DNA of 64,000 nt from a virus (lineage: Duplodnaviria > Heunggongvirae > Uroviricota > Caudoviricetes). The notes beneath the pieces were generated by a model. That model saw only the letters and a program-made list of their open reading frames with translations. It made no database searches and had not been told where the DNA came from. The stretch spans positions 35,982-99,981 of IMG/VR virus record IMGVR_UViG_3300044678_001935; one strand, written 5' to 3'. The translations under genes were made by a program, and so were the position numbers. Positions 3,725 to 63,842 of this stretch are shown piece by piece; the first letter of the stretch is position 1, and the number at the start of each line of letters is the position of its first letter.

Positions 3725-4467
3725 GACTCTATCGCGGTGATTGTTTAGATGTTCTTCCATCTATAGATGACAACTCGGTAGATATGGTTATGTGTGATCT
3801 ACCTTATATGAAAACAGCTTGTTCTTGGGACCACATTATTCCACCAGAAGAATTATGGAAACAATACAACCGAATCTGTAAAGAAAATGCTGCAATGGTC
3901 TTTACGGCAGTTCAACCTTTCACCACACTTCTTATCAGTTCCAATCTTAAGAACTTTCGTTATGAGTTAATCTGGGAGAAACCACAAGGAACCAATCCCT
4001 TAAACAAAGACTACATGCCTCTTAGGTCACATGAGAATATTTTAGTCTTTTATCGCAGACCACCTACCTACAATCCACAGATGGAAAAAGGTAGTCCCTA
4101 CAAGGGTTTTCAGTCACAAAAATCGCTTATTGGGGAAATATACGGTTCGGTCAAAAGTAAGCACCGAAACAATGTAGAAGGAACAAGATACCCTAAAACC
4201 GTTCTTAAGTTTCAACAAGAAAAAGGATTACATCCAACACAAAAGCCTGTTCCTCTTATGGAATATCTCATAAGAACTTACACGAACGAAGGTGATACTG
4301 TTCTAGATAATACTATGGGTAGCGGCACTACCGGAGTAGCCTGCATAAATTCCCAAAGAAATTTTATCGGAATGGAGAGCGAAGAAGCTATCTATAATAC
4401 AGCATTAAAGCGAATTAAAGAAGAACATCTTCGGTCTCGGATGAATATCATGGAATTATTGAGCTAA
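3667..4467 (+). CDS. DNA methyltransferase (beta-class N6-adenine/N4-cytosine family)
   Basis: Motif IV context RLYRGDCLDVLPSI..SVDMVMCDLPY (a DPPY-type box, here DLPY) comes first. The AdoMet motif VLDNTMGSGTTGVA follows, which is the beta-class permutation. Confidence 0.8.
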   Translation: MDAHQTNTSESYTDNSGTIRLYRGDCLDVLPSIDDNSVDMVMCDLPYMKTACSWDHIIPPEELWKQYNRICKENAAMVFTAVQPFTTLLISSNLKNFRYELIWEKPQGTNPLNKDYMPLRSHENILVFYRRPPTYNPQMEKGSPYKGFQSQKSLIGEIYGSVKSKHRNNVEGTRYPKTVLKFQQEKGLHPTQKPVPLMEYLIRTYTNEGDTVLDNTMGSGTTGVACINSQRNFIGMESEEAIYNTALKRIKEEHLRSRMNIMELLS

Positions 4468-31442: not shown

Positions 31443-31779
31443 TTATTTTGTTCGTCGTCGGGTCGCATTGAATCCTAAAACATTACCAGAAATCTTAGAA
31501 GGTCTGGCTAATGATAAGGATTGGAGTGTTCGTATTGAGGTTGCAGAAAATTCCAACACACCACCAGAAACCTTAGAACGGCTGGCTGATGATGAGAGTT
31601 CTTTTGTTCGTAGCTGTGCTGTACGAAATCCCAACACACCACCAGAAACCTTAGCTCGTCTGGCTAATGATGAGGATTGGTATGTTCGTCTTGGGGTTGT
31701 AATTAATCCCAACACACCACAATACATTAGAACTTATCTTAAAATTAAAAAGCTTCTGAATTATTATGAGCAATTATGA
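31435..31779 (+). CDS. LRV/HEAT-like repeat protein (26-aa repeats NPNTPPETLERLANDxDxxVRxxVA)
   Basis: GTG start within GTGAATAATTATTTTG. It has three 78-nt repeats and the conserved C-terminal tail NPNTPQYIRTYLKIKKLLNYYEQL. Confidence 0.55.
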   Translation: MNNYFVRRRVALNPKTLPEILEGLANDKDWSVRIEVAENSNTPPETLERLADDESSFVRSCAVRNPNTPPETLARLANDEDWYVRLGVVINPNTPQYIRTYLKIKKLLNYYEQL

Positions 31780-32053
31780 GCTAGCGAGGAGTCGCAACAC
31801 CACACCAGAAACATTAGAACGTCTGGCTAATGATGTGAATGCCACTGTTCGTTGTGAGGTTGCAGAAAATATCAACACACCACAAGAAAGTTTAAAAAAT
31901 CTGGCAAATGATAATAATCGGACTGTTGCGTATTATGCTAGAAATAATAAAAATTATAATAATCCAATGAAACTAGAGACCTTTGAGTTTTTTGAATGGG
32001 TGGAAAATGCAAGCATAGAAGATCTAGAGAACTTTGCAAATAAAGAATTGTGA
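31766..32053 (+). CDS. LRV/HEAT-like repeat protein
   Basis: Starts MSNYELA inside the conserved junction TTATTATGAGCAATTATGA. Repeats ETLERLANDVNATVRCEVAENINTP. Confidence 0.55.
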   Translation: MSNYELARSRNTTPETLERLANDVNATVRCEVAENINTPQESLKNLANDNNRTVAYYARNNKNYNNPMKLETFEFFEWVENASIEDLENFANKEL

Positions 32054-32403
32054 AAACTATTATTGCCGGATCAAGAAATTGTAATAACATAAAAGAATTA
32101 ATAAAAGCTATTGAAGATTGTAATTGGGTAATAACAACAGTAATAAGTGGAAAAGCTAAGGGTGCTGATACATTAGGTGAATTGTGGGCCAAATATATGA
32201 AGGTTCCTATTATTGAATTTCCAGCCGATTGGAAAACTTATGGTAGATCCGCCGGCCCCCGTAGAAATATTCAAATGGCAGATAATGCAGAAGCTCTTAT
32301 TGCATTATGGGATGGTGAGAGTCGTGGAACAAAACACATGATAAGTGTAGCCGAAGAAAAACAACTATTGGTACACGTCCATAAATTCTGTTGTGACGGT
32401 TGA
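32050..32403 (+). CDS. SLOG/DUF2493 (YspA-like) domain protein
   Basis: IIAGSRNC...ISGKAKGADTLGELWA..VPIIEFPADWKTYGRSAGPRRNIQMAD..ALIALWDGESRGTKHMI matches the DUF2493 consensus GsR..GGA.GaD..A..WA...PAdW..G..AGp.RN..M. GTG start overlapping the upstream TGA. Confidence 0.6.
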   Translation: MKTIIAGSRNCNNIKELIKAIEDCNWVITTVISGKAKGADTLGELWAKYMKVPIIEFPADWKTYGRSAGPRRNIQMADNAEALIALWDGESRGTKHMISVAEEKQLLVHVHKFCCDG

Positions 32404-32424
32404 AAAACTGTCACTTCTTTTCGT

Positions 32425-32895
32425 TTGTGGGTGGTAATCGCTGTTATTCTATTCGGAGAGTTCACGAGAAGAATGTTTTCTGAAGAAGATACTGCGCGAT
32501 GTTGGGATGCACAAAATCCTAAAACCACACCAGAAACCTTAGATCGTCTGGCTAACGATAAGAGTAATCTGGTTCGTCGTAGGGTTGCAGAAAATCCCAA
32601 TACACAATCAGAAACATTAGAACGTCTAGCTGATGACGACGATTATTGGGTTCGTTTTCGGGTTGCAATTAATCCCAACGCACCACCAGAAGCCTTAGAA
32701 CGGCTGGCGAATGATAAGGATTCTTCTGTTCGTTGGTATATTGCAAGAAATCCTATCACACCACCAGAAGTTTTAGAACTTATGGCTAATGATAGGGATT
32801 GGGATGTTCGTTGGCAGGTTGCAAGAAATCCTAACACACCGCAATACATTATAACGTATCTTAAAATCAAGGAGTTTCTGAATTATTATGAGTAA
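32425..32895 (+). CDS. LRV/HEAT-like repeat protein
   Basis: Four 26-aa repeats and the C-terminal NPNTPQYIITYLKIKEFLNYYE. The true start may be the internal ATG at 32473 (MFSEEDTARC). Confidence 0.5.
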   Translation: MWVVIAVILFGEFTRRMFSEEDTARCWDAQNPKTTPETLDRLANDKSNLVRRRVAENPNTQSETLERLADDDDYWVRFRVAINPNAPPEALERLANDKDSSVRWYIARNPITPPEVLELMANDRDWDVRWQVARNPNTPQYIITYLKIKEFLNYYE

Positions 32896-33205
32896 TTATG
32901 ATCTAGCAAGAAATTCCAACACATTACCAGAAGCTTTAGATCGTCTGGCTAATGATAACGATTATTGGGTTCGTCAATATGTTGCATATAATCCATCCAC
33001 GCCACCAGAAGCTTTAGAACGTCTGGCTAATGATAAGTATCCATGTATTCGTTGTGGGGTTGCATGGAATCCCAACACACTACCAGAAATATTAGTTAAT
33101 ATGTCTAATGATAAGTATATTTATATTCGTAGCTGTGTTGCAAATAATCCCAGCACACCACAATACATTAGAACATATCTTAAACTCAACCAAAACAATT
33201 TTTGA
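32888..33205 (+). CDS. LRV/HEAT-like repeat protein
   Basis: Starts MSNYDLA at the junction TTATTATGAGTAATTATGA, overlapping the upstream stop by 8 nt. Confidence 0.55.
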   Translation: MSNYDLARNSNTLPEALDRLANDNDYWVRQYVAYNPSTPPEALERLANDKYPCIRCGVAWNPNTLPEILVNMSNDKYIYIRSCVANNPSTPQYIRTYLKLNQNNF

Positions 33206-33206
33206 C

Positions 33207-34460
33207 ATGTCTTTGAGCGCCATTAAACTCCGCCCACAACAGACCGAAGCTCTTGGTATTATGGAAGAGCATAATAAAGTTCGGGTTATTGCTGCAACAT
33301 CAGCGGGTAAGAGTTACATCATCTTCTTTGATATTCATAAGAAAGCGAAGAATAAAGAGAACTCTTTGTTTGTTATCGTAAGCTCTCGTATTCTACTCCT
33401 TCAACAACTAGAGAAAGAATATTCTAAACTATTTGATAATACTCATATCGTTCATATGCACTCTGGAGAAGCCAAAAGCCGTAAGATTACAGATTATCTT
33501 GAGTTCAGTTATTGGGCAGAAGTCACCGAAGGACCTAAGATTGTTTTTGTAACTTATCATTCTCTTAAGAAGATCGTTAAGAGTGAGATGAATATTGATG
33601 CTCTATATTTGGACGAATGCCACAATGGAGCTAAGAGTCACTTCTTTGAGTATATTAAAGGAGTTGAACCTTATTGTAATAATCTTTACAGTTTCACCGC
33701 TGCTCCTCGTTATCATCCAGATCCTACAAAAAACGGTAACAACAACTCAGAAGTTTTTGGTAGTCAAGTTTATAATGTTAATACTCTTGATTTGATCAAG
33801 AATGGTTCTATTCTTCCACCAAAATCCCAAACCATGAGAATTCCTTCCGTGCGGGATAAGAAGCAGAACCCTCATGAGAGTGATTATTATACTCTTATGG
33901 ACTATCTTTATAATAACGATAATACCGAGAGAGTTCTTATTACTTGCCCCTCTTCAAGATCACTTATGGATTTGATTTGTCTTACTGATTTTTTGAAAGA
34001 TTTGAATGATAGTGGTTATGATGTATTTCATATCACATCAAAATATGGTGCCTTCCATAATAAGACAAAGATTAAACGGTCAGAATTCTTGAATCGGATG
34101 GAAGAGTATGGGGAGCAAAATAAAAAATTTGTCGTTCTCCATTATAGTATCTTGACCGAAGGTTGGAGTAATAATTCCATTCAGGCATCTATTCTCATGC
34201 GACAACAACAATTGGGTGCTACAATTCAAAATATTGGTAGGACACTACGGATTGGCCATTCAGATATTGATCGTATTCAAAAAGGGGAGTTGACTGCTGG
34301 TGATTATGATAATTATGAAAAGCCCTGTGGTAACATAATCATTCCAGTATATGAGAACGTGGGTTCTAACATTGAAGAACAGGTAGATTTTGTTATTGAC
34401 GAGGTTTTTACCAAAGGTAATTATGTTCACGATCTTATTAATGAGAAAAAGAAGTCATGA
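33207..34460 (+). CDS. superfamily 2 DEAD/DEAH-type helicase
   Basis: Motif I AATSAGKS, motif II LDECH, and a C-terminal helicase domain with QN.GRTLR. The in-frame ATG at 33207 is preferred over the track start at 33108, which overlaps the upstream gene. Confidence 0.65.
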   Translation: MSLSAIKLRPQQTEALGIMEEHNKVRVIAATSAGKSYIIFFDIHKKAKNKENSLFVIVSSRILLLQQLEKEYSKLFDNTHIVHMHSGEAKSRKITDYLEFSYWAEVTEGPKIVFVTYHSLKKIVKSEMNIDALYLDECHNGAKSHFFEYIKGVEPYCNNLYSFTAAPRYHPDPTKNGNNNSEVFGSQVYNVNTLDLIKNGSILPPKSQTMRIPSVRDKKQNPHESDYYTLMDYLYNNDNTERVLITCPSSRSLMDLICLTDFLKDLNDSGYDVFHITSKYGAFHNKTKIKRSEFLNRMEEYGEQNKKFVVLHYSILTEGWSNNSIQASILMRQQQLGATIQNIGRTLRIGHSDIDRIQKGELTAGDYDNYEKPCGNIIIPVYENVGSNIEEQVDFVIDEVFTKGNYVHDLINEKKKS

Positions 34461-34801
34461 ATAATGAAGGATTGAAAATATTACAGGCGTCTAATACCAA
34501 CACACCAACAGAAATCTTAGAACGTCTGGCTAATGATGGGGATTATTATGTTCGTTCTCGGGTTGCATCTAATCACAACACATCACCAGAAACCTTAGAA
34601 CGTCTGGCTAATGATGATTTTGTGGATGTTCTTTATTGGGTTGCAGAAAATCCCAACACTCCGTCAGAAATCTTAGAACGTTTGGCTAATGATGGTTCTT
34701 GGTTTGTTCGTTGTGGGGTTGCAAATAATCCCAATACACCTCAATACATTATAACATATCTTAAAATCAAGAAGTTTCTGAATTATTATGAGCAATTATA
34801 A
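34457..34801 (+). CDS. LRV/HEAT-like repeat protein
   Basis: ATGA overlap with the helicase stop. Repeats TEILERLANDGDYYVRSRVASNHNT.., C-terminus NPNTPQYIITYLKIKKFLNYYEQL. Confidence 0.55.
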   Translation: MNNEGLKILQASNTNTPTEILERLANDGDYYVRSRVASNHNTSPETLERLANDDFVDVLYWVAENPNTPSEILERLANDGSWFVRCGVANNPNTPQYIITYLKIKKFLNYYEQL

Positions 34802-35336
34802 TCCCAACATATCACCAGAAACATTAGCTAGTCTGGCTAATAATGATTATGGGGTTGTTCGTTTTGGGGTTGCAACAAATCCTAACACACCACCAGAAGC
34901 ATTAGAACTTCTGGCGAATGATGATCATATTGATGTTCGTCGTGGGGTTGCAGTGAATCCCAACACACCACCAGAAACATTAGAACTTCTGGCTAATGAT
35001 GAGAATGTTGGTGTTCGTGTGAGGGTTGCAGGAAATCTCAACACACTACCAGAAGCATTAGAACGTCTTGCTAATGATGGCGATTATTATGTTCGTTATT
35101 GGGTTGCATCAATTACCAACACACCACCAAAAATATTAGTTATTATGGCTAACGATAAGCATTCTCATGTTCGTAGCTGTGTTGCATCTAATACCAATAC
35201 ACCACCAGAAGCCTTAGAACGTCTGGCTAATGATAATAATTGGCTTGTTCGTTGGCAGGTTGCATATAATCCCAACACTCCCCAATACATTCTAACTTAT
35301 CTTAAAATCAAGGAGTTTCTGAATTATTATGAGTAA
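34788..35336 (+). CDS. LRV/HEAT-like repeat protein
   Basis: 182 aa with six repeats, starting MSNYNPN at the conserved junction. Confidence 0.55.
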   Translation: MSNYNPNISPETLASLANNDYGVVRFGVATNPNTPPEALELLANDDHIDVRRGVAVNPNTPPETLELLANDENVGVRVRVAGNLNTLPEALERLANDGDYYVRYWVASITNTPPKILVIMANDKHSHVRSCVASNTNTPPEALERLANDNNWLVRWQVAYNPNTPQYILTYLKIKEFLNYYE

Positions 35337-35338
35337 TT

Positions 35339-35581
35339 ATGAGTAATTATGATCCCCACACATCAACAGAAACATTAGATCGTCTGGCTAATGATGAAGA
35401 TTTGGAAGTTCGTTGTCAGGTTGCACAAAATCCCAATACACCACCAGAAGCATTATCACGTCTGGCTGATGATAAGAGTTATTATGTTCGTTCTGGGGTT
35501 ACATTTAATCCCAACACACCTCAATACATTCTAACTTATCTTAAAATCAAGAAGTTTCTGAATTATTATAAATTATTATGA
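35339..35581 (+). CDS. LRV/HEAT-like repeat protein
   Basis: Preceded by a duplicated junction ATGAGTAATT x2 (35329-35348) that creates a 5-codon mini-ORF MSNYE. Confidence 0.5.
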   Translation: MSNYDPHTSTETLDRLANDEDLEVRCQVAQNPNTPPEALSRLADDKSYYVRSGVTFNPNTPQYILTYLKIKKFLNYYKLL

Positions 35582-35910
35582 CTAATTACGATATAGCAAA
35601 AAATCTCAATACATCAATAGAAACCTTAGAACGTCTGGCTAATGATGACGATTGTTGTGTTCGTTGTGGGGTTGCAGAAAATCCCAACACACCACCAGAA
35701 GCATTAGCACGTCTGGCGAATGATAATAGTTATTATGTTCGTGGCTGGGTTGCAAGAAATCCCAATACACCACCAGAAGCCTTAGAACGTCTGGCTAATG
35801 ATAATAATTGGCTTGTTCGTTGGCAGGTTGCATTTAATCCCAACACCCCCCAATACATTCTAACTTATCTCAAAGTTAGACAGTTTCTGAGGTGTCACAC
35901 TAGAACCTAA
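35578..35910 (+). CDS. LRV/HEAT-like repeat protein
   Basis: Starts MTNYDIAKN and carries four repeats. Confidence 0.55.
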   Translation: MTNYDIAKNLNTSIETLERLANDDDCCVRCGVAENPNTPPEALARLANDNSYYVRGWVARNPNTPPEALERLANDNNWLVRWQVAFNPNTPQYILTYLKVRQFLRCHTRT

Positions 35911-43895: not shown

Positions 43896-44295
43896 AAATA
43901 AATTTTGGGACCTTGAATCTAATCTAAATGAGATTGAATCCAATTATTTGGATCTTGAAGAGCAGTTAGCACATTTTGTTACAGATTCGCTTCTACTTAT
44001 TGAAAACTTAGATCTTGAATCTTTGGCAATACCAATATTCGCTCAGAGTCTTATTATTCGTAATTACCGAGATTACAAATATCAAGATTTATTAAAAAAA
44101 TTACTGGTATCTAAAAATTTCACACCAGGCCTAATATACCGCACAAGAGAAATTTTTACAGAAAAAGAGTTTGAACCTTTTTTACAATACTTACTACAAA
44201 ATCCAAATTTAGACCAGTATGCAAGAGAATACTACACCAACCTAAAAAAATCTTATGACCGAAGACTTACTAGGGAACAAACTAAAAAAGCTTGA
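43876..44295 (+). CDS. hypothetical protein
   Basis: 139-aa ORF. Confidence 0.35.
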   Translation: METHEIENKFWDLESNLNEIESNYLDLEEQLAHFVTDSLLLIENLDLESLAIPIFAQSLIIRNYRDYKYQDLLKKLLVSKNFTPGLIYRTREIFTEKEFEPFLQYLLQNPNLDQYAREYYTNLKKSYDRRLTREQTKKA

Positions 44296-45025
44296 GCAAC
44301 TGGAGGCTGGGCGTTATGCCGATCCTTTTCTTCCACTCATGGCCAGAATTGATGGTAAGTGCTTCAGTAATTTCACTAGAAGTCTAAAACGTCCTTATGA
44401 CGAGAGATTTATTCGGCTTATGATAGCAACGACAAAATATCTTGTTGAAGAAAGTGAGGCTATTTTAGGTTATTGCCAATCTGATGAAATTACTCTTTAT
44501 TGGTACTTAGATAAAGAAAACTTTTCCAATAGAGAATTCTGGTTTCGTGGTAAGTTTCAGAAATTAACTTCTGTCTTAGCCTCAACTGCTAGCTCTTATT
44601 TTTGTGGTAATCTCGCACATTATTTACCAGAAAAGACTGGTAACTATCCAACCTTTGATACAAGAGTTTGGAGTGTTCCCGATTTGGAATGCGTTTATGA
44701 GAATTTTCTATGGCGGTTTAAGGATGCGAGAAAAAATTCTGTATCCATGTATGCAAGACATTTCTTTTCACCAAACCAGCTTTTTAAAAAGTCCTGTGAA
44801 GAAATGAAAGAAATGTTAGCGGTTATTCGTAGGCCGTGGGAAGAATTACCTAAATTCTTTACCGATGGGACGTATATTAAAAGACAAAAATTCTTATTGT
44901 CTCCTTATGATCCTAGATGGAATGACGTTCCCTCTCAATACCGGCCAACAAAACCTGTTGAGCGTACATTGGTTTCCGTTTGGGAACCAGAGACAACGGT
45001 ATCACTTGATTGGTTCACTTATTAA
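44255..45025 (+). CDS. Thg1-like protein (tRNA-His guanylyltransferase family 3'-5' nucleotidyltransferase)
   Basis: MARIDGKCFSNF..KRPYDERFIRLM aligns with the Thg1 region VRLDGRNFHRF..KPNDSRALQLM. GYCQSDEITLYW aligns with AYGQSDEYSFVF, SVLASTASSYF with HVASQFASSY, and the C-terminal FDTRVWSVPD...ENFLWRFKDARKNSVSMYARHFF with FDGRVVVYPS..LSWRQADCHINNLYNTVFW. Confidence 0.75.
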   Translation: MTEDLLGNKLKKLEQLEAGRYADPFLPLMARIDGKCFSNFTRSLKRPYDERFIRLMIATTKYLVEESEAILGYCQSDEITLYWYLDKENFSNREFWFRGKFQKLTSVLASTASSYFCGNLAHYLPEKTGNYPTFDTRVWSVPDLECVYENFLWRFKDARKNSVSMYARHFFSPNQLFKKSCEEMKEMLAVIRRPWEELPKFFTDGTYIKRQKFLLSPYDPRWNDVPSQYRPTKPVERTLVSVWEPETTVSLDWFTY

Positions 45026-45426: not shown

Positions 45427-45609
45427 ATGCACACCATAGAACTTTTTACTTTTAAAGACGCTATACATCTTTTTAACATAGAAATGCAGATTGTTCCCAT
45501 TGCTGGAGATTATATTAAGTATAATTACATCTTATACAAAGTTATTGAAAGAGGTTTTGAAGTTTTTCCGGCTACAACTATTCGTCTTTACGTAGAAGAA
45601 ACCAAATGA
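45427..45609 (+). CDS. small hypothetical protein
   Basis: In-frame ATG within track ORF 45391..45609, downstream of repeat copy B. Confidence 0.3.
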   Translation: MHTIELFTFKDAIHLFNIEMQIVPIAGDYIKYNYILYKVIERGFEVFPATTIRLYVEETK

Positions 45610-46223
45610 ATTACACCGAAGAACAAGTTAAAGAAATCGTCAGAAATGTCATTTCTGAGATGCAATCTGTAAATGTTAAGGATCTTACACTTTACCAAAA
45701 AAGGGGTGTTGCAAGAAATCCCAATACAGCACCAGAAGTCTTAGACCGTCTGGCTAATGATAAGGATTCTTATGTTCGTTGGCAGGTTGCAGAAAATCCC
45801 AACACACCACCAGAGACCTTAGAACGTCTGGCTAATGATGACGATTATTGTGTTCGTTGGAGTGTTGCATTTAATCCCAACACACCACCAGAAACATTAG
45901 CTCGTCTAGCTAATGATGTGGATTATTGTGTTCGTACGCCGGTTGCATTTAATCCCAACACACCACCAGAAGTTTTAGAACGTCTGGCTAATGATAACGA
46001 TTCTGTGGTTCGTTATTATGTTGCAAGAAATCCCAACACATTAACAGAAACTTTAGAACGTTTGGCTAATGATAAGAGTTCTTCTGTTCGTGAATGTGTT
46101 GTACAAAATCCTAACTACAAACGGAAATCCAACAATAAGATCACTATTGAGCTTACAGAAGAACAGTTGTCTCAATTACGAAAATGTGCAGACATGTTCT
46201 CTGGTCTTTTAGGATCTGTATAA
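45606..46223 (+). CDS. LRV/HEAT-like repeat protein
   Basis: 205 aa with six 26-aa repeats, a unique N-terminal 30 aa and a unique C-terminal 35 aa (no NYYE tail). Confidence 0.55.
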   Translation: MNYTEEQVKEIVRNVISEMQSVNVKDLTLYQKRGVARNPNTAPEVLDRLANDKDSYVRWQVAENPNTPPETLERLANDDDYCVRWSVAFNPNTPPETLARLANDVDYCVRTPVAFNPNTPPEVLERLANDNDSVVRYYVARNPNTLTETLERLANDKSSSVRECVVQNPNYKRKSNNKITIELTEEQLSQLRKCADMFSGLLGSV

Positions 46224-46250: not shown

Positions 46251-46505
46251 ATGGAAAAACTAAAATTCGTTGAAACCATTCTTGATCGGCTACAAGAATA
46301 TTCTATATCTCATCCACAACATGATACAGATGATGTGCTTAGCAAAGCACGAAAAGAACTTGAAAAACTTAATAAAAATTATGTTTTGATTGAAAACACT
46401 GAACATATTAAACTTTTGGACAATCAACGCACTCTTTATGCTCTTCATCGTGGTGGTGTTGATAATTGGGAATGGTATGACGAGTCTTTGAGCAGTTTGG
46501 ACTGA
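46251..46505 (+). CDS. hypothetical protein
   Basis: 84-aa ORF. Confidence 0.35.
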   Translation: MEKLKFVETILDRLQEYSISHPQHDTDDVLSKARKELEKLNKNYVLIENTEHIKLLDNQRTLYALHRGGVDNWEWYDESLSSLD

Positions 46506-46676
46506 CACTTTCAGAACCGTCCACAACCGCTTGACAATCCAGCCAATCCATGGTAGATTGAACAAGTTCAAAGATGAGGCAGCAATTCCTTTCTTCTGCA
46601 AATAGAAACAAAACTCATCTTGTATTAAGTTGATTCCGCATCAACAACAGCAAAAACATCAACTTGGAGATTAATT

Positions 46677-48140
46677 ATGACTTTTATGCAAGCTCTTTCT
46701 TCTGAAATGAACGTAACCACCACCGCTAATGGTGCCAAGGCTTACGAATCAACCGAAAATGAATGTCTTGATCTTTTCGGTTCAATTGGTGCCTGTCGCA
46801 ATAATATGTCTTTGGCTGAACGGTTGTTCTTTAATGCTTATAACCAACACCCAGAAACTGCCGCTAGAATTCTCTTCTACTCCCGCGATATTCGTGGAGC
46901 TAGTCAAGGTGAGCGAGCCGTATTTCGGGCTCTTATGCCGAAGTTCGCACAAAAGAATCCGACTGTTGCAAAAAAACTTGTTTCTTTGATTCCTTATTAT
47001 GGCCGATGGGATGATCTTCTATGTCTAGAAGGAACTCCTGTTTGGACAGAGGCTCTAGAAACTATTAAAGTTCAACTTAATGCAGATCTTAATAACAATA
47101 AGGTTTCTCTGGCAGCAAAATGGATGCCTAGTATCAATGCTTCAAGCAAAGAAAGCAAGCGTCTTGGTCGGATGATTGCGAATCATATGGGTTGGTCTGA
47201 ACGACAGTATCGTAAGAATCTTTCTACTCTTCGGGCGAAAATTAACATTGTTGAAACTCCGATGTGTGCCAAAGAGTGGGGACTTATCAATTATGAGAAT
47301 CTTCCTTCTCGTGCGGCGATGATGTACCGCAAAGCCTTTAAAAAGCACGATGAGACCCGATATAATAACTATCTCTCTAGTGTAGAGAAAGGTGAAGCGA
47401 AGATCAATGCTGGGACTCTGTTTCCTTATGATATTGTGAGCAAGTACCTCTACAAAGGTGCTCATAATGATAAAACTCTTGAGCTTCAATGGGATGCTCT
47501 TCCTAATTATATGGAAGGACTAGAGTTTAATGGTCTTGTTGTTGCAGACGTTTCAGGATCAATGACTTGCGCTGCTGGTATGCCATTGGCCGTTTCTATC
47601 TCACTTGCGATGTATATTGCCGAAAGAAATCCTTCAAGCGTTTGGAAAAATAAGTTCATCACTTTTTCTCAAAATCCAAAACTTCAATCTATTCTTGGTA
47701 ATAATATTGAAGAGAAAATTAGGTATCTCCAACGTGCTGAATGGGGAGTTAATACTGATCTAATGGCAGTATTCCGTACTGTTCTTGATGCTGCAACCAA
47801 TAATAATGTTGCACAATCAGATATGCCCCAGAAGCTAATTATCGTTTCCGATATGCAATTTGATAAGGCTTGTGCCTCAAATAAGCGAACTAATTTTGAG
47901 CAGATTCAGAAACTTTATCGTAAGGCTGGTTATGAAATGCCAGAACTCGTATTCTGGAATGTAAATGCTGGTGCAAATGTTCCAATTCAGGCCGATGATA
48001 ATGGAACCTGTCTTGTTTCGGGATGTAGTCCTGCTATTCTAAAGAGTGTTCTTAGTGGTAAAATCGTTTCTCCTATTGATGTTATGATGGAAAGTCTTTA
48101 TGTGGAACGATACGCTCCTATTGGTGAAGCGTTTGCATAA
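46677..48140 (+). CDS. von Willebrand factor A (vWA) domain protein (DUF2828-like architecture)
   Basis: MIDAS-type motif VVADVSGSM at the start of a C-terminal alpha/beta domain, after a long helical N-terminal region. Confidence 0.5.
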   Translation: MTFMQALSSEMNVTTTANGAKAYESTENECLDLFGSIGACRNNMSLAERLFFNAYNQHPETAARILFYSRDIRGASQGERAVFRALMPKFAQKNPTVAKKLVSLIPYYGRWDDLLCLEGTPVWTEALETIKVQLNADLNNNKVSLAAKWMPSINASSKESKRLGRMIANHMGWSERQYRKNLSTLRAKINIVETPMCAKEWGLINYENLPSRAAMMYRKAFKKHDETRYNNYLSSVEKGEAKINAGTLFPYDIVSKYLYKGAHNDKTLELQWDALPNYMEGLEFNGLVVADVSGSMTCAAGMPLAVSISLAMYIAERNPSSVWKNKFITFSQNPKLQSILGNNIEEKIRYLQRAEWGVNTDLMAVFRTVLDAATNNNVAQSDMPQKLIIVSDMQFDKACASNKRTNFEQIQKLYRKAGYEMPELVFWNVNAGANVPIQADDNGTCLVSGCSPAILKSVLSGKIVSPIDVMMESLYVERYAPIGEAFA

Positions 48141-48207
48141 TTAAATTTCTTAAGATGGTTCAGCAATTCTCATATGTTTTGGGTACATAAAAGACCATCT
48201 TGTTTAA

Positions 48208-48322
48208 AGAGCGAGTAGCTCAGGGGTAGAGCAACGTAATAACAAATCTCGTTTGAGATTTTAACAGCAATCAAAACCGCATGTTAAGCCGTAGGCCCCA
48301 GGTTCAAATCCTGGCTCGCTCA
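48208..48322 (+). tRNA. tRNA-like gene with a roughly 42-nt insertion between the D and T arms (isotype unresolved)
   Basis: Perfect 7-bp acceptor GAGCGAG/CTCGCTC, D arm GCTC-AGGGGTA-GAGC and T arm CCAGG-TTCAAAT-CCTGG. The central region is 65 nt instead of about 23 and contains the hairpin AAATCTC-GTTT-GAGATTT (48243-48260). Confidence 0.4.
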
Positions 48323-48433
48323 TCAGATGATTCAGCAATTATCTCTTCGCTAGGAAAACAAAATCATCTAGTTAAACAATTTTATCAATTCTCAAAAAAT
48401 GTTCAATTTCGTTATTAATACTAAATAACCAAC

Positions 48434-48507
48434 AGCGGGCGAGTGTAACGGTAGTCACGTCGGGCTCATAACCCGGAGGAATATGGGTTCAATTCCCAGG
48501 TCCGCCA
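48434..48507 (+). tRNA. tRNA-Met (CAT), initiator-like
   Basis: Anticodon arm TCGGG-CTCATAA-CCCGG is the same as E. coli tRNA-fMet through its three G-C pairs. There is an A1·C72 mismatch at the acceptor end, T loop TTCAATT and acceptor 3' GTCCGCC. Confidence 0.55.
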
Positions 48508-48572
48508 TCAGATGATTCAGCAATTTCAAAACTTCTTATTGGTTAGAAAAACAAAAATCATCTAGTCTTATT

Positions 48573-48693
48573 ACGAGAGTAGCCCAATTGGTTGAGGTGA
48601 GCGTAAGAAACAAAAATGATCTAGACAGATCATTCAGCAATAATACACTTTCTAAGGAACGCTTTGATGTCAGTTCAAATCTGACCTCTCGTA
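48573..48693 (+). tRNA. tRNA-like gene with a roughly 49-nt insertion in the anticodon-loop region (isotype unresolved)
   Basis: Perfect acceptor ACGAGAG/CTCTCGT and T arm GTCAG-TTCAAAT-CTGAC. A candidate anticodon stem GAGCG/CGCTT encloses 56 nt that include the hairpin AATGATCT-AGAC-AGATCATT (48614-48633). Confidence 0.35.
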
Positions 48694-48809: not shown

Positions 48810-49514
48810 ATGATGTACTCAAACAACTTTGCTGCGGCAATTAAGGTAAACGGTAAAATTCTCCGTGAGTTCGGTGATACTGTTTATCTTCCATTCGGCT
48901 CTGAATATGAAATCAGACTGAAGAACTTACATTCTCAAAGAGCCAAAGTCAATATTGATATTGACGGTTCTACTGTTACAGGGAATGGTCTTATTATCCG
49001 ACCCCAACAGACTGTAGATCTAGAAAGATTCATTCGTGATAATCTAAACGAAGGTAATAAATTCAAGTTTATTGAGCGAACAGATAAGATTGAAAATCAT
49101 CGCGGAATTAAACTTGAAGATGGATTGATTACGATTCGTTTTGAGTTTGAAATTACTCTTAATAATTTTGCTATTTCAACTCCATTAACTTATAGATCTT
49201 ATGGTGGAGGTCTTTATAACTCTTCTAATGTGGTTTCTAATAATATTGTAAGCGTTCCCGTAAATGATACAGGAATCACTGTAGAAGGATCCAAAAGCGA
49301 TCAATCGTTTGGTGCGACAAGTTGGTTTGGATCTATTGGTGGGACTCATGTTTTGAACATTAAACTTTTAGGTGAAACTGAAGACAATAAAAAAATTAGA
49401 GAACCAGTTACAGTTAAAACTAAATTAGAATGTAAAACTTGTGGTACTATTAACAGTGTAACATCCAAGTTCTGTTCTGAATGTGGAACATCTTTACACA
49501 TCGTAGCCGCCTGA
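48810..49514 (+). CDS. hypothetical protein with a C-terminal zinc ribbon
   Basis: C-terminus CKTCGTINSVTSKFCSECGT (a CxxC-x9-CxxC motif). Confidence 0.45.
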   Translation: MMYSNNFAAAIKVNGKILREFGDTVYLPFGSEYEIRLKNLHSQRAKVNIDIDGSTVTGNGLIIRPQQTVDLERFIRDNLNEGNKFKFIERTDKIENHRGIKLEDGLITIRFEFEITLNNFAISTPLTYRSYGGGLYNSSNVVSNNIVSVPVNDTGITVEGSKSDQSFGATSWFGSIGGTHVLNIKLLGETEDNKKIREPVTVKTKLECKTCGTINSVTSKFCSECGTSLHIVAA

Positions 49515-50794: not shown

Positions 50795-51312
50795 CTGAAC
50801 AAGAGCAAAAACTATTAAACAAGTTTCTTTCCTCTATTGAAGAAGACGAAAAGTTCTTCAAAGAGATTATGAACCGAACAGATGAAGACGCAAGACTTCT
50901 TCAATGGATTGTCAATAATAATATCAATCCTTACGGTGTTTTTCCTTATTATATTGCTGGCAGTCTTTCCGAATTACAATCCTTTGTTGCCATCTACATT
51001 AAGATGACGTATCAAAGAAAGCACTGTGAAATTAATTACGTCAACGTTGAAAGAACAAGTAGCTCACATGATCATGTTGATAACCTAGGACCGAGAGTAG
51101 TTTTTGTTGGTAAATGGGAAGATGATTTTCATGCGCTAGTTAAAAAAGAATTAAATCTACCCGACGATGAGCTACCATGGGAATCATACACTTATGACTT
51201 TGACATCTTAGAAAACGTAGACGCCTTTATTGAAACATACAATAGGGTTGAAGATTATCACAAGAATCGTTATGAAGAAAACAGTAAGCTTGCGGATAGG
51301 TGGTTATCATGA
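50791..51312 (+). CDS. hypothetical protein
   Basis: 173-aa ORF whose stop TGA overlaps the lysS ATG (ATGA). Confidence 0.4.
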
Positions 51313-52787
51313 ATGAAGAAACATCACAATTTTTATCAGCCAGGTTGGATAAGATTTCAGAACTACAGAAAATAGGGCAAGTTGCATATGCTAATTCTTT
51401 TCACCCTACAATTAAAGCATTAGAATTACATAAGAATTATTTTAATCTGGAAAATGGTTCTGAATGTGATGATAATGTTGTTATAGCTGGTCGTATTATC
51501 GCAAGAAGAGTATTCGGTAAGTTGTCATTTTTTACTCTTTCCGATGACAGTGGAACAATTCAGCTTTATATTGAGAACGCCATCGTTGGTTCCGATATTG
51601 TTTCCTTAACCGATGTCGGCGACTGGATCGGCGCCACCGGCACCCTGCGGCGCACCGACCGGGGCGAGCTTTCGGTCAAGGTGCGCGACTGGACGATGCT
51701 CAGCAAGTCGCTTCAGCCCCTGCCCGACAAGTGGCATGGCCTGGCGGACGTGGAGAAGCGCTACCGGCAGCGCTATCTCGATCTGATCGTCTCCCCCCAC
51801 ACCCGCGAAACTTTCCGGCGACGTGCCATTTTGATTAGAACTATTCGCAATTGGCTTGACTCGCGGGAATTTTTGGAGATTGAAACTCCTATTCTACAAA
51901 CCGAAGTTGGCGGAGCCGAGGCCAAACCTTTCTCAACATATCATAACACTCTAGATCTATCATTAACTCTAAGAATTGCGACCGAGTTGCACCTTAAGAG
52001 GATGATTGTTGGTGGTTTTGAAAGAGTTTATGAGTTGGGTCGTATATTTCGTAATGAAGGTCTAAGCACCCGCCATAATCCAGAGTTTACAACCGTTGAG
52101 ATTTATCAGGCATATGCAGATTATAATGATATGATGATTTTAACAGAAAATCTCATATCTACTTGCGCAGAGACAGTTTGTGGTTCTACTGTAATAGTTT
52201 ATCAAGATGAAAAAATTGATCTAACTCCTCCTTGGAATAAATGTACAATGCACGAATTGGTTTTTGAGCATACTGGTCTTGATTTTCATCAATTTTCGTC
52301 AAGAACCGATGCCGCTAATGCTATGGAAACTATTGGATTGGTTGTTCCTGATAGTGCCGATTCCGTTGGTCGGTTATTAAACGAAGCCTTTGAACAAAGA
52401 GTTGAAAAACAGCTCATTCAACCGACTTTTGTTTTAGATTATCCTGTTGAAATTTCTCCACTGGCCCGTTCTCATAGAGAAAAACCGGAATTGGTTGAAA
52501 GATTTGAATTATTCATCTTTGGTCGTGAAATTGCCAATGCCTTTAGCGAACTCACCGATCCTTTAGAACAGAGAAAAAGATTAGAAGAACAACAAACCCG
52601 CCGCAATAATGGCGATCAAGAGGCTCACACTATTGATGAAGACTTTTTAAACGCACTTGAAATTGGAATGCCGCCAACCGGAGGACTAGGTATTGGTATA
52701 GACAGATTGACAATGTTACTTACGGATAGTCCGTCTATTCGTGATGTTATCGCTTTTCCTTTAATGCGCCCAGAGGACAAAACATGA
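51309..52787 (+). CDS. lysS: lysyl-tRNA synthetase (class II)
   Basis: N-terminal OB anticodon-binding region ([23 protein letters not shown]), motif 2 [23 protein letters not shown] and motif 3 [18 protein letters not shown] at 51309; the track lists a GTG at 51300. Confidence 0.85.
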
Positions 52788-55033: not shown

Positions 55034-55105
55034 CTGGAAATAAGTCAGTGGTAGACGGTCTAGTTTGGGGCTAGAAAGACGTTGGTTCGAGTCCAACTTT
55101 TCAGA
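55034..55105 (+). tRNA. tRNA-Pro (TGG)
   Basis: Acceptor CTGGAAA/TTTTCAG, D arm AGTC-AGTGGTA-GACG, anticodon arm TCTAG-TTTGGGG-CTAGA (U33, anticodon TGG, G37) and T arm GTTGG-TTCGAGT-CCAAC. Confidence 0.55.
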
Positions 55106-63589: not shown

Positions 63590-63842
63590 TTATGATCTTG
63601 ATCTAGATCTTGCATGGAATCCCAACACACCCCCAGAAACATTGGATCTTCTGGCTAATGATGTGGATTGGATTGTTCGTTGGTATGTTGCAGAAAATCC
63701 CAACACACAATCAGAAACCTTAGAACGTCTGGCTAATGATAGCGATTATTGTGTTCGTTGGTGTGTTGCAACAAATCCCAACACACCACAATATATTCTA
63801 ACATATCTTAAAATCAAAAAGTTTTTGAATTGTTATGAGTAA
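63582..63842 (+). CDS. LRV/HEAT-like repeat protein
   Basis: MSNYDLDLDLAWNPNTPPETLDLLANDVDWIVRWYVAENPNT.. at the conserved junction. Confidence 0.55.
   Translation: MSNYDLDLDLAWNPNTPPETLDLLANDVDWIVRWYVAENPNTQSETLERLANDSDYCVRWCVATNPNTPQYILTYLKIKKFLNCYE

What the first reader, a model, noticed from the sequence alone, without database searches (positions are those of the whole stretch)
48208..48693. tRNA cluster with two tRNA-like genes carrying 40-50-nt hairpin inserts, and an initiator-type tRNA-Met
An ORF-free 670-bp region holds three elements with perfect acceptor and T arms. The middle one (48434-48507) is a normal initiator-like tRNA-Met (CAT). The other two have intact acceptor, D and T arms but 42-49 extra nucleotides in the anticodon region, each folding into a perfect 7-8-bp hairpin. 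They could be intron-containing tRNAs, tRNAs invaded by a small repeat element, or tRNA-like precursors of small RNAs, as with the T4 tRNA-region species 1 and 2 RNAs.
Basis: seen in the sequence. Interest (0 to 1): 0.7.

Follow-up and report, generated by a model that had tools for sequence, protein, structure and literature searches.

The report
tRNA-shaped partner RNAs of Ro60-like protein
The two "tRNAs with inserts" are not intron-containing tRNAs but most likely tRNA-shaped non-coding RNAs that carry, in place of the anticodon loop, a conserved stem-plus-CAGCAAU module found next to a Ro60-like (DUF2828) gene in hundreds of phages and bacteria, making them a rewired version of bacterial Y RNAs.

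Summary
Rfam's tRNA model hits 48209-48322 and 48573-48693, each with 53-54 nt where the anticodon loop should be, and 48434-48507 is an initiator-like tRNA-Met.

Neither insert leaves a convincing anticodon loop. Each is a 7-8-bp hairpin followed by CAGCAAU. The same module occurs five more times nearby as free hairpins (5' AGAUNNNN-CAGCAAU-N22-31-NNNNAUCU-NG 3'), with the two helix strands joined the other way round.

Stem+CAGCAAY elements flank its homologues, on the gene's strand, in 32/51 viral and 57/80 bacterial loci. Their stems covary. Some enclose YrlA-like tRNA mimics. Cutting one of those at its acceptor loop and rejoining its ends gives a sequence that aligns end to end with the window's first tRNA-like RNA (79/114 identical).

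Best reading: these are circularly permuted, cloverleaf-shaped YrlA-type Y RNAs that partner a Ro60-like protein. Binding itself is inferred, not shown.

This is a new variant of a known kind. The free hairpins also resemble Dictyostelium Class I RNAs; that link is untested.

The parts
46531..46559 (+). Sigma-70-like promoter (TTGACA-17-TAGATT, with TG extension). It would start transcription a few bases before the first hairpin.
   Evidence: 10/12 match. This is a consensus scan only; function is inferred.
46569..46624 (+). Free-standing stem+CAGCAAU hairpin 1 (AAAGATGAGG-CAGCAAT-N27-ACTCATCTT-GTA), upstream of the Ro60-like gene.
   Evidence: Model R2 scores 54.5 bits, but this copy was in the training set.
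46625..46668 (+). Degenerate second hairpin (AAGTTGAT...ATCAACTT-GGAG) in the 5' UTR. Its 3' tail runs into the Shine-Dalgarno GGAG, so it is a possible autoregulatory operator.
   Evidence: R2 scores 20.5 bits, E 0.047; the window copy was not in the training set. Homologous hairpins lie directly before the start codon in L002, L004-L007, L019, L040 and L043.
46677..48140 (+). 487-aa Ro60-like protein: a helical-repeat ring plus a vWA domain with the MIDAS motif DVSGS...T...D. Pfam DUF2828 + DUF7788; PHROG 850 'RNA-binding protein'.
48150..48204 (+). Free-standing hairpin 3 (TAAGATGGTT-CAGCAAT-N25-GACCATCTTG). It ends 4 nt before the 5' end of tRNA-like 1.
48209..48322 (+). tRNA-like RNA 1 (type A): a full cloverleaf with a 3-bp ACG/CGU 'anticodon stem'. 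The module AAATCTC-GTTT-GAGATTT-TAA-CAGCAAT (48244-48271) replaces the anticodon loop. No CCA is encoded.
   Evidence: 123 bits with R1; covariation; aligns 79/114 with the circularly permuted Enterococcus phage ZJGS3 YrlA-type RNA.
48322..48373 (+). Free-standing hairpin 4 (AGATGATT-CAGCAAT-N22-AATCATCT-AGT). It starts 2-3 nt after the 3' end of tRNA-like 1.
48434..48507 (+). tRNA-Met (CAU), initiator-like: A1/C72 unpaired, G29-31:C39-41.
   Evidence: A homologous tRNA-Met lies at the same relative place in L002/L003.
48507..48567 (+). Free-standing hairpin 5 (AGATGATT-CAGCAAT-N31-AATCATCT-AGT). It starts right after tRNA-Met and ends 6-9 nt before tRNA-like 2.
   Evidence: Weak Rfam Dicty_Class_I_RNA match, 15.8 bits.
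48573..48693 (+). tRNA-like RNA 2: a cloverleaf with a 5-bp AGCGU/ACGCU stem and a further AGAAA/UUUCU helix. The module is AATGATCT-AGAC-AGATCATT-CAGCAAT (48615-48641).
   Evidence: 37.3 bits; 41.2 bits with R1.

Best explanation
**What it is.** The region 46.5-48.7 kb is one ribonucleoprotein locus. It encodes a Ro60-like ring protein (DUF2828/DUF7788) and an array of its likely partner RNAs. All of these RNAs share one recognition module:
- a 7-10-bp helix whose outer pairs are nearly fixed (5' AGNU / ANCU 3');
- a G one or two bases past the 3' strand;
- the single-stranded motif CAGCAAY, 0-5 nt after the other strand.

**Two forms in the window.** The module appears as five ~50-nt hairpins, where the helix closes the RNA's own ends. 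It also appears inside two cloverleaf tRNA look-alikes, where the same helix is capped by a tetraloop and takes the place of the anticodon loop. The cloverleaf form is a circular permutation of YrlA-type Y RNAs. In those, the module closes the RNA ends and the acceptor stem is capped by a loop.

**Proposed mechanism.** Only step 2 has a consensus-scan result behind it; the rest is inferred.
1. The array is transcribed with or just after the gene.
2. No terminator-like site was found across the locus.
3. RNase P and 3' processing enzymes cut at the tRNA and tRNA-like boundaries. This releases the hairpins, the 114- and 121-nt tRNA-like RNAs and tRNA-Met. CCA is then added.
4. The Ro60-like ring binds the helix+CAGCAAY module.
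5. The L-shaped tRNA body acts as a tether or mimic for tRNA-handling enzymes, or gates the ring. This would direct the complex to tRNA surveillance, repair or decay during infection.
6. The hairpins in the 5' UTR may give feedback control of the protein's own synthesis.
For: **The protein is Ro60-like.**
- The top 12 Foldseek hits are all Ro60.
- A MIDAS motif is present.
- Mycobacteriophage homologues are annotated 'Ro-like RNA binding protein'.

**The RNA travels with the gene.**
- Viral loci: 104 stem+CAGCAAY elements on the gene's strand within 1 kb, against 5 on the other strand; 32/51 loci have at least one.
- Bacterial loci: 110 against 7; 57/80 loci.
- In the 64-kb window, only the sites flanking the gene score with model R2.
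- All 7 R2 hits in bacterial loci are on the gene's strand next to the gene.
- Cultured phages of Mycobacterium, Listeria, Enterococcus, Bacillus, Campylobacter and Citrobacter have them too.

**The structure is selected at the RNA level.**
- Hairpin stems are 92% paired, with 28 double-change cells against 5.7 in shuffles (0/500 reach this).
- tRNA-like helices are 99% paired, with 15 pairs showing compensatory changes.
- There are 49 G-U pairs in 110 bacterial stems.

**Link to YrlA.**
- Elements with 80-100-nt interiors contain a T arm, a capped acceptor stem and a D arm, and hit Rfam YrlA at 30-47 bits with E 2e-7 to 0.02. Examples are Akkermansia L102, Mycolicibacterium L116 and phage Krypton555.
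- Cutting these at the acceptor loop and joining their ends gives sequences that align with window 48209-48322 over the full length. Identical positions: ZJGS3 79/114, Krypton555 82/114, Akkermansia 76/114. Alignment scores are 27-38, against 5.4 +/- 2 for shuffles and 16-20 unpermuted.
- Cloverleaf versions with hairpin+UAACAGCAAY inserts also sit upstream of the gene in Clostridia, Neisseriaceae and other loci.

**Precedent.** Ro60 orthologues bind adjacent, same-strand Y RNAs with tRNA-like domains that are RNase P and CCA-enzyme substrates (PMC4201824). A phage Ro60 binds phage Y-like RNAs and host PNPase (PMC12135203).
Against: - No binding, expression or processing data exist for this locus; the protein-RNA pairing rests on co-occurrence.
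- Pfam TROVE is not matched, and a sequence search of the PDB finds nothing. Ro60 likeness is therefore at the fold level, from a predicted model.
- The YrlA motif thought to bind Rsr (GNCGAAN0-1G) is absent. Rfam YrlA scores stay below the gathering score of 69 (17.5 bits in the window).
- 19/51 viral and 23/80 bacterial loci had no element under my strict pattern. Some of these carry a CUGCAAY variant.
- My element finder is a home-made pattern, and its list includes some false positives.
- The alignment used for covariation of the tRNA-like RNAs was fitted to the model, which leans towards the structure.
- The partner of the tRNA-shaped body and the biological role are guesses.
Confidence: 0.75

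Rival explanations
1. They are genuine tRNA genes interrupted by short introns. The introns are spliced out to give working tRNAs, and the hairpin may be released as a by-product.
For: Acceptor, D and T arms are intact, and the Rfam tRNA scores are above the gathering score. In element 3 a 5-bp anticodon stem is present, and the last 7 insert bases (CUAAGGA) could by chance read as C32-U33-AAG-G37-A38.
Against: - The inserts are 42-47 nt, far too short for group I introns, and there is no intron hit in Rfam at E<=10.
- Bacteria and their phages have no known splicing endonuclease for such inserts.
- In type A (7 distinct copies) the stem is only ACG/CGU, and no 7-nt loop with U33 can be formed.
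- About 40% of random sequences would offer a YU-NNN-R loop at one of 8 possible cut positions.
- The same module occurs outside tRNA frames and in the permuted YrlA arrangement.
Confidence: 0.05
2. A small selfish repeat (MITE- or REP-like) spread through the tRNA region and disrupted two tRNA genes, which are now pseudogenes.
For: There are seven copies of one short motif within 2.2 kb. Synechococcus phage B3 annotates its copy as 'tRNA-Pseudo'.
Against: - The copies are confined to the flanks of one gene and are absent from the other 60 kb.
- They are all on the gene's strand.
- Acceptor, T and insert helices keep pairing through compensatory changes, which pseudogenes would not do.
- The association holds from cyanophages to Clostridia, Akkermansia and mycobacteriophages.
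- In inserts the two half-sites are joined in the opposite order to the free copies, which is not what insertion of an element would give.
Confidence: 0.05
3. The modules are cis-acting processing or regulatory signals, such as nuclease entry sites, 3'-end protectors or a translational operator. They would serve tRNA maturation and control of the upstream gene, and would not be stable partner RNAs.
For: Hairpins abut tRNA 3' ends and precede tRNA-like 5' ends. The hairpin nearest the gene overlaps the Shine-Dalgarno region in many lineages. No terminators are predicted inside the array.
Against: - Some lineages have a single ~150-nt element with its own rho-independent terminator and no tRNA nearby (L009-L016).
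- Many elements enclose elaborate conserved domains, including YrlA-like ones.
- A signal for tRNA maturation would not be expected inside the anticodon arm of a conserved cloverleaf.
- This reading is compatible with the main one for the 5'-UTR copies.
Confidence: 0.1
4. The tRNA-like RNAs are decoys that soak up host anticodon nucleases or other tRNA-targeting defences, and act independently of the Ro60-like protein.
For: The setting is a phage with many tRNA-related genes nearby: a Thg1-like enzyme, lysyl-tRNA synthetase and tRNAs. RNA ligase or RtcB genes sit next to homologues in GAP32 and Listeria phage.
Against: The anticodon loop, which is the usual target of such nucleases, is exactly the part that is missing. 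This reading does not explain the strict linkage to one protein family or the free hairpins. The PADLOC defence library gives no hit.
Confidence: 0.05

Closest known systems
YrlA-type bacterial Y RNAs with Ro60 orthologue Rsr (Rfam RF02553; Chen et al. 2014, PMC4201824)
   Same: - Non-coding RNAs encoded next to, and on the same strand as, a ring-plus-vWA RNA-binding protein.
- A terminal helix with a short conserved motif, plus a tRNA-like domain (T arm, D arm, acceptor-like stem) that keeps the tertiary-contact nucleotides.
- Several RNAs per locus; present in phages too.
- Relatives of the window's RNA in the YrlA arrangement hit RF02553 at E down to 2e-7.
   Different: - The protein is Pfam DUF2828/DUF7788, not TROVE.
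- The conserved motif is CAGCAAY, not GNCGAAN0-1G.
- In the window the RNA ends lie at a normal 7-bp acceptor stem and the protein-binding module sits in the anticodon arm, which is a circular permutation.
- Scores are below Rfam's gathering threshold.
Thermus phage phiLo Ro60 with Yrl1/Yrl2 (PMC12135203)
   Different: The phiLo RNAs carry a CGAA motif in a stem-bulge-stem. They are not cloverleaves and are not reported as tRNA-shaped.
Deinococcus radiodurans Yrn1
   Same: It has tRNA-like features in the natural tRNA order (D side, 'anticodon arm', T side), according to PMC4201824.
   Different: In Yrn1 the Ro-binding helix continues from the acceptor side. Here it replaces the anticodon loop, and the acceptor end is free.
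Dictyostelium Class I RNAs (Rfam RF01414; PMC7919456)
   Same: These resemble the free hairpins. Shared features:
- a 6-9-bp stem joining the 5' and 3' ends, with compensatory changes;
- a start at AAG and an end at CU(U)GU;
- a CAGCAA core just after the 5' strand (Class I motif CCUUACAGCAA, with C6, C9, A10 and A11 nearly invariant);
- an A/U-rich variable interior;
- a length of ~50-60 nt and many copies.

RF01414 is the recurrent best non-tRNA hit on these hairpins, at 15.8-25.4 bits.
   Different: All scores are below the gathering score of 41.5. The Dictyostelium promoter element is irrelevant here. It is not known whether Dictyostelium has a DUF2828 protein. The known Class I binder is an RRM protein.
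Circularly permuted tRNA-related genes (permuted tRNAs of Cyanidioschyzon; two-piece and permuted tmRNA)
   Same: One RNA fold is encoded with different positions of the 5'/3' ends in different lineages.
   Different: Those cases restore a normal tRNA or tmRNA. Here both arrangements are stable non-decoding RNAs. This comparison comes from my own knowledge and was not tested.

Membership tests
tRNA (decoding) | Cloverleaf with a 7-bp acceptor stem, D arm and T arm with T-loop consensus | tested here: met
   RF00005 scores 50.7 and 37.3 bits (gathering score 29). Acceptor 7/7 and T stem 5/5.
tRNA (decoding) | 5-bp anticodon stem closing a 7-nt loop with U33 and an anticodon | tested here: not met
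   53-54 nt replace the loop. ARAGORN makes no call. Type A has a 3-bp stem and no U33 loop.
Intron-containing tRNA (group I or bulge-helix-bulge) | Group I catalytic core, or a bulge-helix-bulge at the exon-intron junctions that leaves a canonical anticodon arm after excision | tested here: not met
   The insert is 42-47 nt, and no Rfam intron family hits at E<=10. No canonical loop is recoverable in type A.
Initiator tRNA-Met (element 48434-48507) | CAU anticodon, unpaired 1:72, and three G-C pairs at 29-31:39-41 | tested here: met
   Read directly from the sequence: A1/C72, UCGGG/CCCGG and CAU. Formylation and initiator use are not testable here. An elongator Met or a lysidine-modified Ile identity is not excluded.
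Y RNA / YrlA (RF02553) | Encoded next to, and on the same strand as, a Ro60 orthologue | tested here: met
   The adjacent same-strand gene has a Ro60 fold. It is not a Pfam TROVE member.
Y RNA / YrlA (RF02553) | tRNA-like domain with T arm, D arm and acceptor-like stem | tested here: met
Y RNA / YrlA (RF02553) | 5'/3' terminal helix carrying GNCGAAN0-1G; T arm before D arm; acceptor stem capped by a loop | tested here: not met
   The motif here is CAGCAAY, and the ends lie at the acceptor stem. The window scores 17.5 bits against a gathering score of 69. Relatives in the YrlA arrangement score 30-47 bits. The permuted forms align.
Y RNA / YrlA (RF02553) | Physical binding to the Ro60 protein | not testable with these tools
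   Needs EMSA, RIP or co-purification.
Ro60/TROVE protein | HEAT-like helical ring closed by a vWA domain with MIDAS | tested here: met
Ro60/TROVE protein | Sequence membership (Pfam TROVE PF05731) | tested here: not met
   Pfam gives only PF11443 and PF25043. phmmer against PDB sequences gives no hit.
Dictyostelium Class I RNA (RF01414), for the free hairpins | Terminal 6-bp stem, a conserved motif ending CAGCAA next to the 5' strand, AAG start and CUGU end, ~42-65 nt | tested here: inconclusive
   The architecture and core motif match (PMC7919456). Model scores of 15.8-25.4 bits are below the gathering score of 41.5.
T4 tRNA-region species 1 and 2 RNAs | Sequence or structure similarity to the T4 stable RNAs | not tested
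   No model or sequence was available in the tools used.

The most novel reading that the evidence does not exclude
DUF2828/DUF7788 proteins, together with stem+CAGCAA RNAs, form a large and so far undescribed sister system of Ro60/Y RNA. It spans phages, many bacterial phyla and eukaryotes, and its RNAs come in at least three interchangeable layouts: a bare hairpin, a YrlA-like tRNA mimic, and a cloverleaf with the module in the anticodon arm.

The abundant Dictyostelium Class I RNAs (AAG-stem-CUUACAGCAA...stem-CUGU), whose function has been open since 2004, would be its eukaryotic members. A DUF2828 protein would then be their missing partner. [quoted passage not shown]
Probability: 0.35. 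Interest if true: 0.9.

Novelty: new variant of a known kind. Interest (0 to 1): 0.8.

Why it matters
**It explains a common annotation puzzle.** Odd 'pseudo-tRNA' or 'tRNA-OTHER' calls in large phage genomes would be functional RNAs, not decayed or intron-bearing tRNAs.

**It gives a widespread protein of unknown function a likely ligand.** Homologues occur in 697 cultured phage genomes, and more than 6,500 were found in the protein search. The proposed ligand comes with a defined recognition module that can be tested by simple mutagenesis.

**It shows one RNA-protein recognition unit in two permuted layouts.** The same unit is wired into a tRNA fold in two circularly permuted ways. That is a clean natural experiment on how Y RNAs are built, and on which part tethers and which part mimics.

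**It may bear on phage-host conflicts over tRNA.** Homologues repeatedly sit next to tRNA arrays and RNA ligase or RtcB genes, and this window also holds Thg1-like and tRNA synthetase genes. This points to tRNA repair or surveillance during infection.

**It may give Dictyostelium Class I RNAs a biochemical context.** If the resemblance holds, a 20-year-old orphan RNA class gains a directly testable partner protein.

Tried and rejected
**tRNA and intron checks**
- ARAGORN finds no intron-containing tRNA at the two long elements.
- Rfam at gathering threshold gives only tRNA. At E<=10 it gives no intron, riboswitch or known phage RNA family, only weak YrlA and Dicty_Class_I hits.

**Protein searches that gave nothing**
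- Sequence search of the protein against the PDB: no hit.
- NCBIfam and PADLOC: no hit.

**Alternative readings considered**
- Promoter or terminator reading of the repeat. The spacing to downstream genes is variable, copies lie inside tRNA frames, and no terminator-like sites were found. Rejected.
- A second helix in element 1 (UUAACAGC/GCAUGUUAA), proposed by single-sequence folding. It is not conserved in relatives, so it was dropped.

**A correction**
- By eye I found no motif around the Citrobacter phage Moogle homologue. The pattern scan later found three elements on the gene's strand, between the opposite-strand tRNA genes.

**Limits of the models and tools**
- The phage-trained hairpin model R2 recovers only 7 bacterial copies, because its stem positions are sequence-biased. 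The pattern-based counts are more sensitive but noisier.
- The AlphaFold-database fold search, meant to ask whether Dictyostelium has a DUF2828 protein, was unavailable.
- The 2011 Class I pull-down paper is not held.
- Literature searches for DUF2828, PF11443 and DDB_G0281243 found nothing relevant.
- Cluster look-up gave no organism names.
Full report
**1.

Between the stop codon at 48140 and the next gene at 48810 there is no credible ORF. Rfam's tRNA model matches three places on the + strand:
- 48209-48322 (50.7 bits);
- 48434-48507 (38.7 bits);
- 48573-48693 (37.3 bits).

The first and third carry 53 and 54 nt where the model expects the inner anticodon arm or loop. ARAGORN calls only the middle one, as tRNA-Met(CAT).

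Both long elements have perfect 7-bp acceptor and 5-bp T stems. Element 1 keeps U8, A14, G18G19 and the T-loop. Each insert contains an exact hairpin: 7 bp at 48244-48261 and 8 bp at 48615-48634.

The tRNA-Met has an unpaired 1:72 and the GGG/CCC run in its anticodon stem, so 'initiator-like' is fair.

**2. The inserts are not introns**

They are 42-47 nt long. No intron family matches even at E<=10.

In the best-represented type the anticodon stem is just ACG/CGU, flanked by conserved UAA and AGC, and no U33-anticodon loop can be recovered. That type includes window element 1, Synechococcus phage B3, and six IMG/VR relatives.

**3. What the inserts are**

Each insert is a hairpin followed 0-5 nt later by CAGCAAT. 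In the window the two inserts read AAATCTC-GTTT-GAGATTT-TAA-CAGCAAT and AATGATCT-AGAC-AGATCATT-CAGCAAT.

The exact word TTCAGCAAT occurs four times on the + strand within 48159-48641 and once elsewhere in 64 kb, on the minus strand. The expectation is 1.2.

The other copies are free hairpins of the form 5' (A)AGATNNNN-CAGCAAT-N22-31 (A-rich)-NNNNATCT-NG 3'. They lie at 46569-46624, 48150-48204, 48322-48373 and 48507-48567. A degenerate one lies at 46625-46668.

The same helix and the same flanking motif are therefore present in both settings, but the strands are connected differently. In the free copies the helix closes the RNA's ends. In the inserts it is capped by a tetraloop, and the open side faces the tRNA body.

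Twenty-seven free copies from the window and its relatives align. Their stems are 92% paired, and the inner four pairs covary: 28 double-change cells against 5.7 in shuffles, with 0/500 shuffles reaching the observed value. Slid controls pair at 21-44%. The outer pairs (A-U, G-C, N-N, U-A) and a G just past the 3' strand are nearly invariant. That pattern fits sequence-specific recognition.

**4. The neighbouring gene**

ORF 46677-48140 matches Pfam DUF2828 + DUF7788 and PHROG 850 'RNA-binding protein'.

An AlphaFold model built from 33 sequences has pLDDT 80.8 and pTM 0.75. Its 12 best Foldseek matches in the PDB are all Ro60/TROVE proteins, with E 5e-8 to 7e-6 over more than 500 columns. vWA-only proteins come next, at E >= 0.01.

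Plain sequence methods do not see this: Pfam TROVE is not matched, and a sequence search of the PDB finds nothing. Homologues occur in 697 cultured phage genomes, and the mycobacteriophage ones are annotated 'Ro-like RNA binding protein'.

**5. The RNA module travels with the gene**

*Viral loci.* In 51 loci holding a homologue (36-81% identity), stem(>=7 bp)+CAGCAAY elements number 104 on the gene's strand within 1 kb. There are 5 on the other strand near the gene, and 31 (+) and 18 (-) in the 225 kb further away. Thirty-two of 51 loci have at least one. One clade without them has a CUGCAAY variant instead. There it closes a ~150-nt RNA directly after the gene, with its own terminator.

*Bacterial and MAG loci.* In 80 loci (37-60% identity) the counts are 110 against 7, in 57/80 loci. 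The phyla include Clostridia, Erysipelotrichaceae, Akkermansia, Treponema, Selenomonas, Succinimonas, Mycolicibacterium, Chloroflexi and a cyanobacterium. The consensus is 5' AAGRCNC-N1-3-CAGCAAY...GNGYCUU-GU 3', with 49 G-U pairs among the stems.

*Cultured phages.* Phages of Mycobacterium, Listeria, Enterococcus, Bacillus, Campylobacter and Citrobacter show the elements in the unannotated gaps beside the gene.

*Model scans.* In the window, a covariance model of the hairpin scores only the sites around this gene. In bacterial loci all seven of its hits lie on the gene's strand next to the gene.

**6. The link to Y RNAs**

Where the element's interior is 80-100 nt, it contains a T arm, a capped acceptor-like stem and a D arm, which is the YrlA layout. 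These interiors hit Rfam YrlA with E 2e-7 to 0.02, at 30-47 bits, below the gathering score of 69. Examples are Akkermansia L102, Mycolicibacterium L116, Succinimonas L110 and phage Krypton555.

Other bacterial loci instead carry cloverleaf tRNA look-alikes of 105-125 nt. Like the window's, these have hairpin+UAACAGCAAY inserts. They are all on the gene's strand and mostly just upstream of the gene.

The two layouts are circular permutations of one another. I cut the Enterococcus phage ZJGS3 RNA at its acceptor loop and joined its natural ends. The result aligns with window 48209-48322 over the full length:
- 79/114 positions are identical;
- the score is 38, against 5.4 +/- 2.0 for shuffles and 19.5 unpermuted;
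- the shared blocks include GTAGCTCAG..GGTAGAGCAACGTA, CTYGTT, TAACAGCAAT and AGCCGT.GG, as well as the T arm.

Krypton555 and Akkermansia behave the same way. The 'GUU' that ends the free RNAs is the loop of the insert hairpins.

In eight type-A cloverleaf copies, 99% of cells pair and 15 of 26 pairs show compensatory changes: acceptor 6/7, insert hairpin 6/7, T stem 3/5 (0/500 shuffles reach this). The caveat is that this alignment was fitted to the model.

**7. Mechanism**

*Shown here:* the fold of the protein, the conserved and covarying RNA module, its linkage to the gene, and the permutation.

*Taken from the literature:* Ro60 orthologues bind adjacent Y RNAs. YrlA's tRNA-like domain is modified by tRNA enzymes, and in Mycobacterium smegmatis it is cut by RNase P and given CCA (PMC4201824). 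A phage Ro60 binds phage Y-like RNAs and host PNPase (PMC12135203).

*Inferred for this locus:*
- A promoter-like site at 46531-46559 and the absence of terminator-like sites suggest one transcript.
- The tRNA-shaped units punctuate it, so RNase P and 3' trimming would release the hairpins, the two tRNA-like RNAs and tRNA-Met.
- The ring protein binds the helix+CAGCAAY module.
- The tRNA body recruits or mimics a substrate for tRNA-handling enzymes.
- The 5'-UTR hairpin that overlaps the Shine-Dalgarno sequence may give feedback control.

The local gene content fits a role in tRNA surveillance or repair during infection, but the role is a guess. The window holds a Thg1-like enzyme, lysyl-tRNA synthetase and tRNAs. 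Relatives have RNA ligase or RtcB next to the gene.

**8. Comparison and novelty**

This works like Ro60/YrlA. It is not a member by the family's own criteria: the protein family differs, the motif differs, the scores are below threshold, and the topology differs.

I found no paper linking DUF2828 to these RNAs. The Ro-likeness of the protein is already reflected in phage annotations, and YrlA RNAs next to Ro60 in phages are known. I therefore rate it a new variant of a known kind.

**9. An unexpected lead**

The free hairpins repeatedly give Rfam's Dictyostelium Class I RNA as their best non-tRNA match, at 15.8-25.4 bits against a gathering score of 41.5.

Published Class I features match the prokaryotic consensus AAG-stem-N1-3-CAGCAAY...stem-CUU-GU. 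Those features are a 6-bp terminal stem with compensatory changes, an AAG start, a CUGU end, the motif CCUUACAGCAA with C6, C9, A10 and A11 nearly invariant, a length of ~60 nt and many copies (PMC7919456).

One of four proteins pulled down with a Class I RNA, DDB_G0281243, has no known function (bioRxiv 10.1101/2020.04.05.026054). I could not check its domains, so this remains a hypothesis.

Noticed in passing
L049 1420-1884; L019 107-570: GOLLD RNA (RF02032) scores well above its gathering score (226 and 203 bits). Both copies lie inside tRNA arrays a few kb upstream of DUF2828 homologues in freshwater viral contigs.
   Followed up: no
window 51300-52787: A full-length lysyl-tRNA synthetase (NCBIfam lysS, 639-689 bits) is encoded by what appears to be a ~250-kb cyanophage-like genome. 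The closest relatives are Synechococcus phage B3/B23 and a 248-kb IMG/VR contig.
   Followed up: partly
window 44255-45025: A Thg1-like tRNA-His guanylyltransferase / 3'-5' polymerase gene (Pfam Thg1, PHROG 4717) lies 1.6 kb upstream of the Ro60-like gene.
   Followed up: no
window 46251-46505: An 84-aa ORF matches phage T7 gp5.9, a RecBCD inhibitor (Pfam PF25708, E 1e-8).
   Followed up: no
window ~31540-35700, 45786-45814, 63687-63716: A ~30-nt coding repeat, GTTGCAGAAAATCCCAACACACCACCAGAA (VAENPNTPPE), recurs at least 8 times. It corresponds to leucine-rich-repeat-variant/HEAT units; one such protein is at 45606-46223.
   Followed up: no
L042-L045 (e.g. L043 2741-5059): The DUF2828 gene looks split. 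The N-terminus starts near 2741, and similarity to residues 124-479 resumes at 4001. This implies a ~900-nt insertion, possibly an intron or a mobile element.
   Followed up: no
L009-L016 (e.g. L010 5515-5640): In this clade the RNA element has a conserved interior, CUUC-N-GGG-UU-GAAG-UAAA-N-CCCC, which may form a pseudoknot. It differs from the tRNA-like modules.
   Followed up: no
L137 10-1275; L136 4343-4497: RNA ligase genes sit beside DUF2828 homologues: an Rnl-type ligase in Cronobacter phage GAP32 and RtcB in Listeria phage LMTA-148.
   Followed up: no
window 48148-48261: Rfam's weak YrlA alignment places AAGAUGGUUcaGCAAU against YrlA's CGAAUGCUU..GGGGAAC. This hints that the CAGCAAY module may be a diverged form of the YrlA Rsr-binding region.
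   Followed up: no
window 55034-55105: An ordinary tRNA-Pro(TGG) (56.5 bits). Synechococcus phage B3 has one at a comparable position.
   Followed up: no
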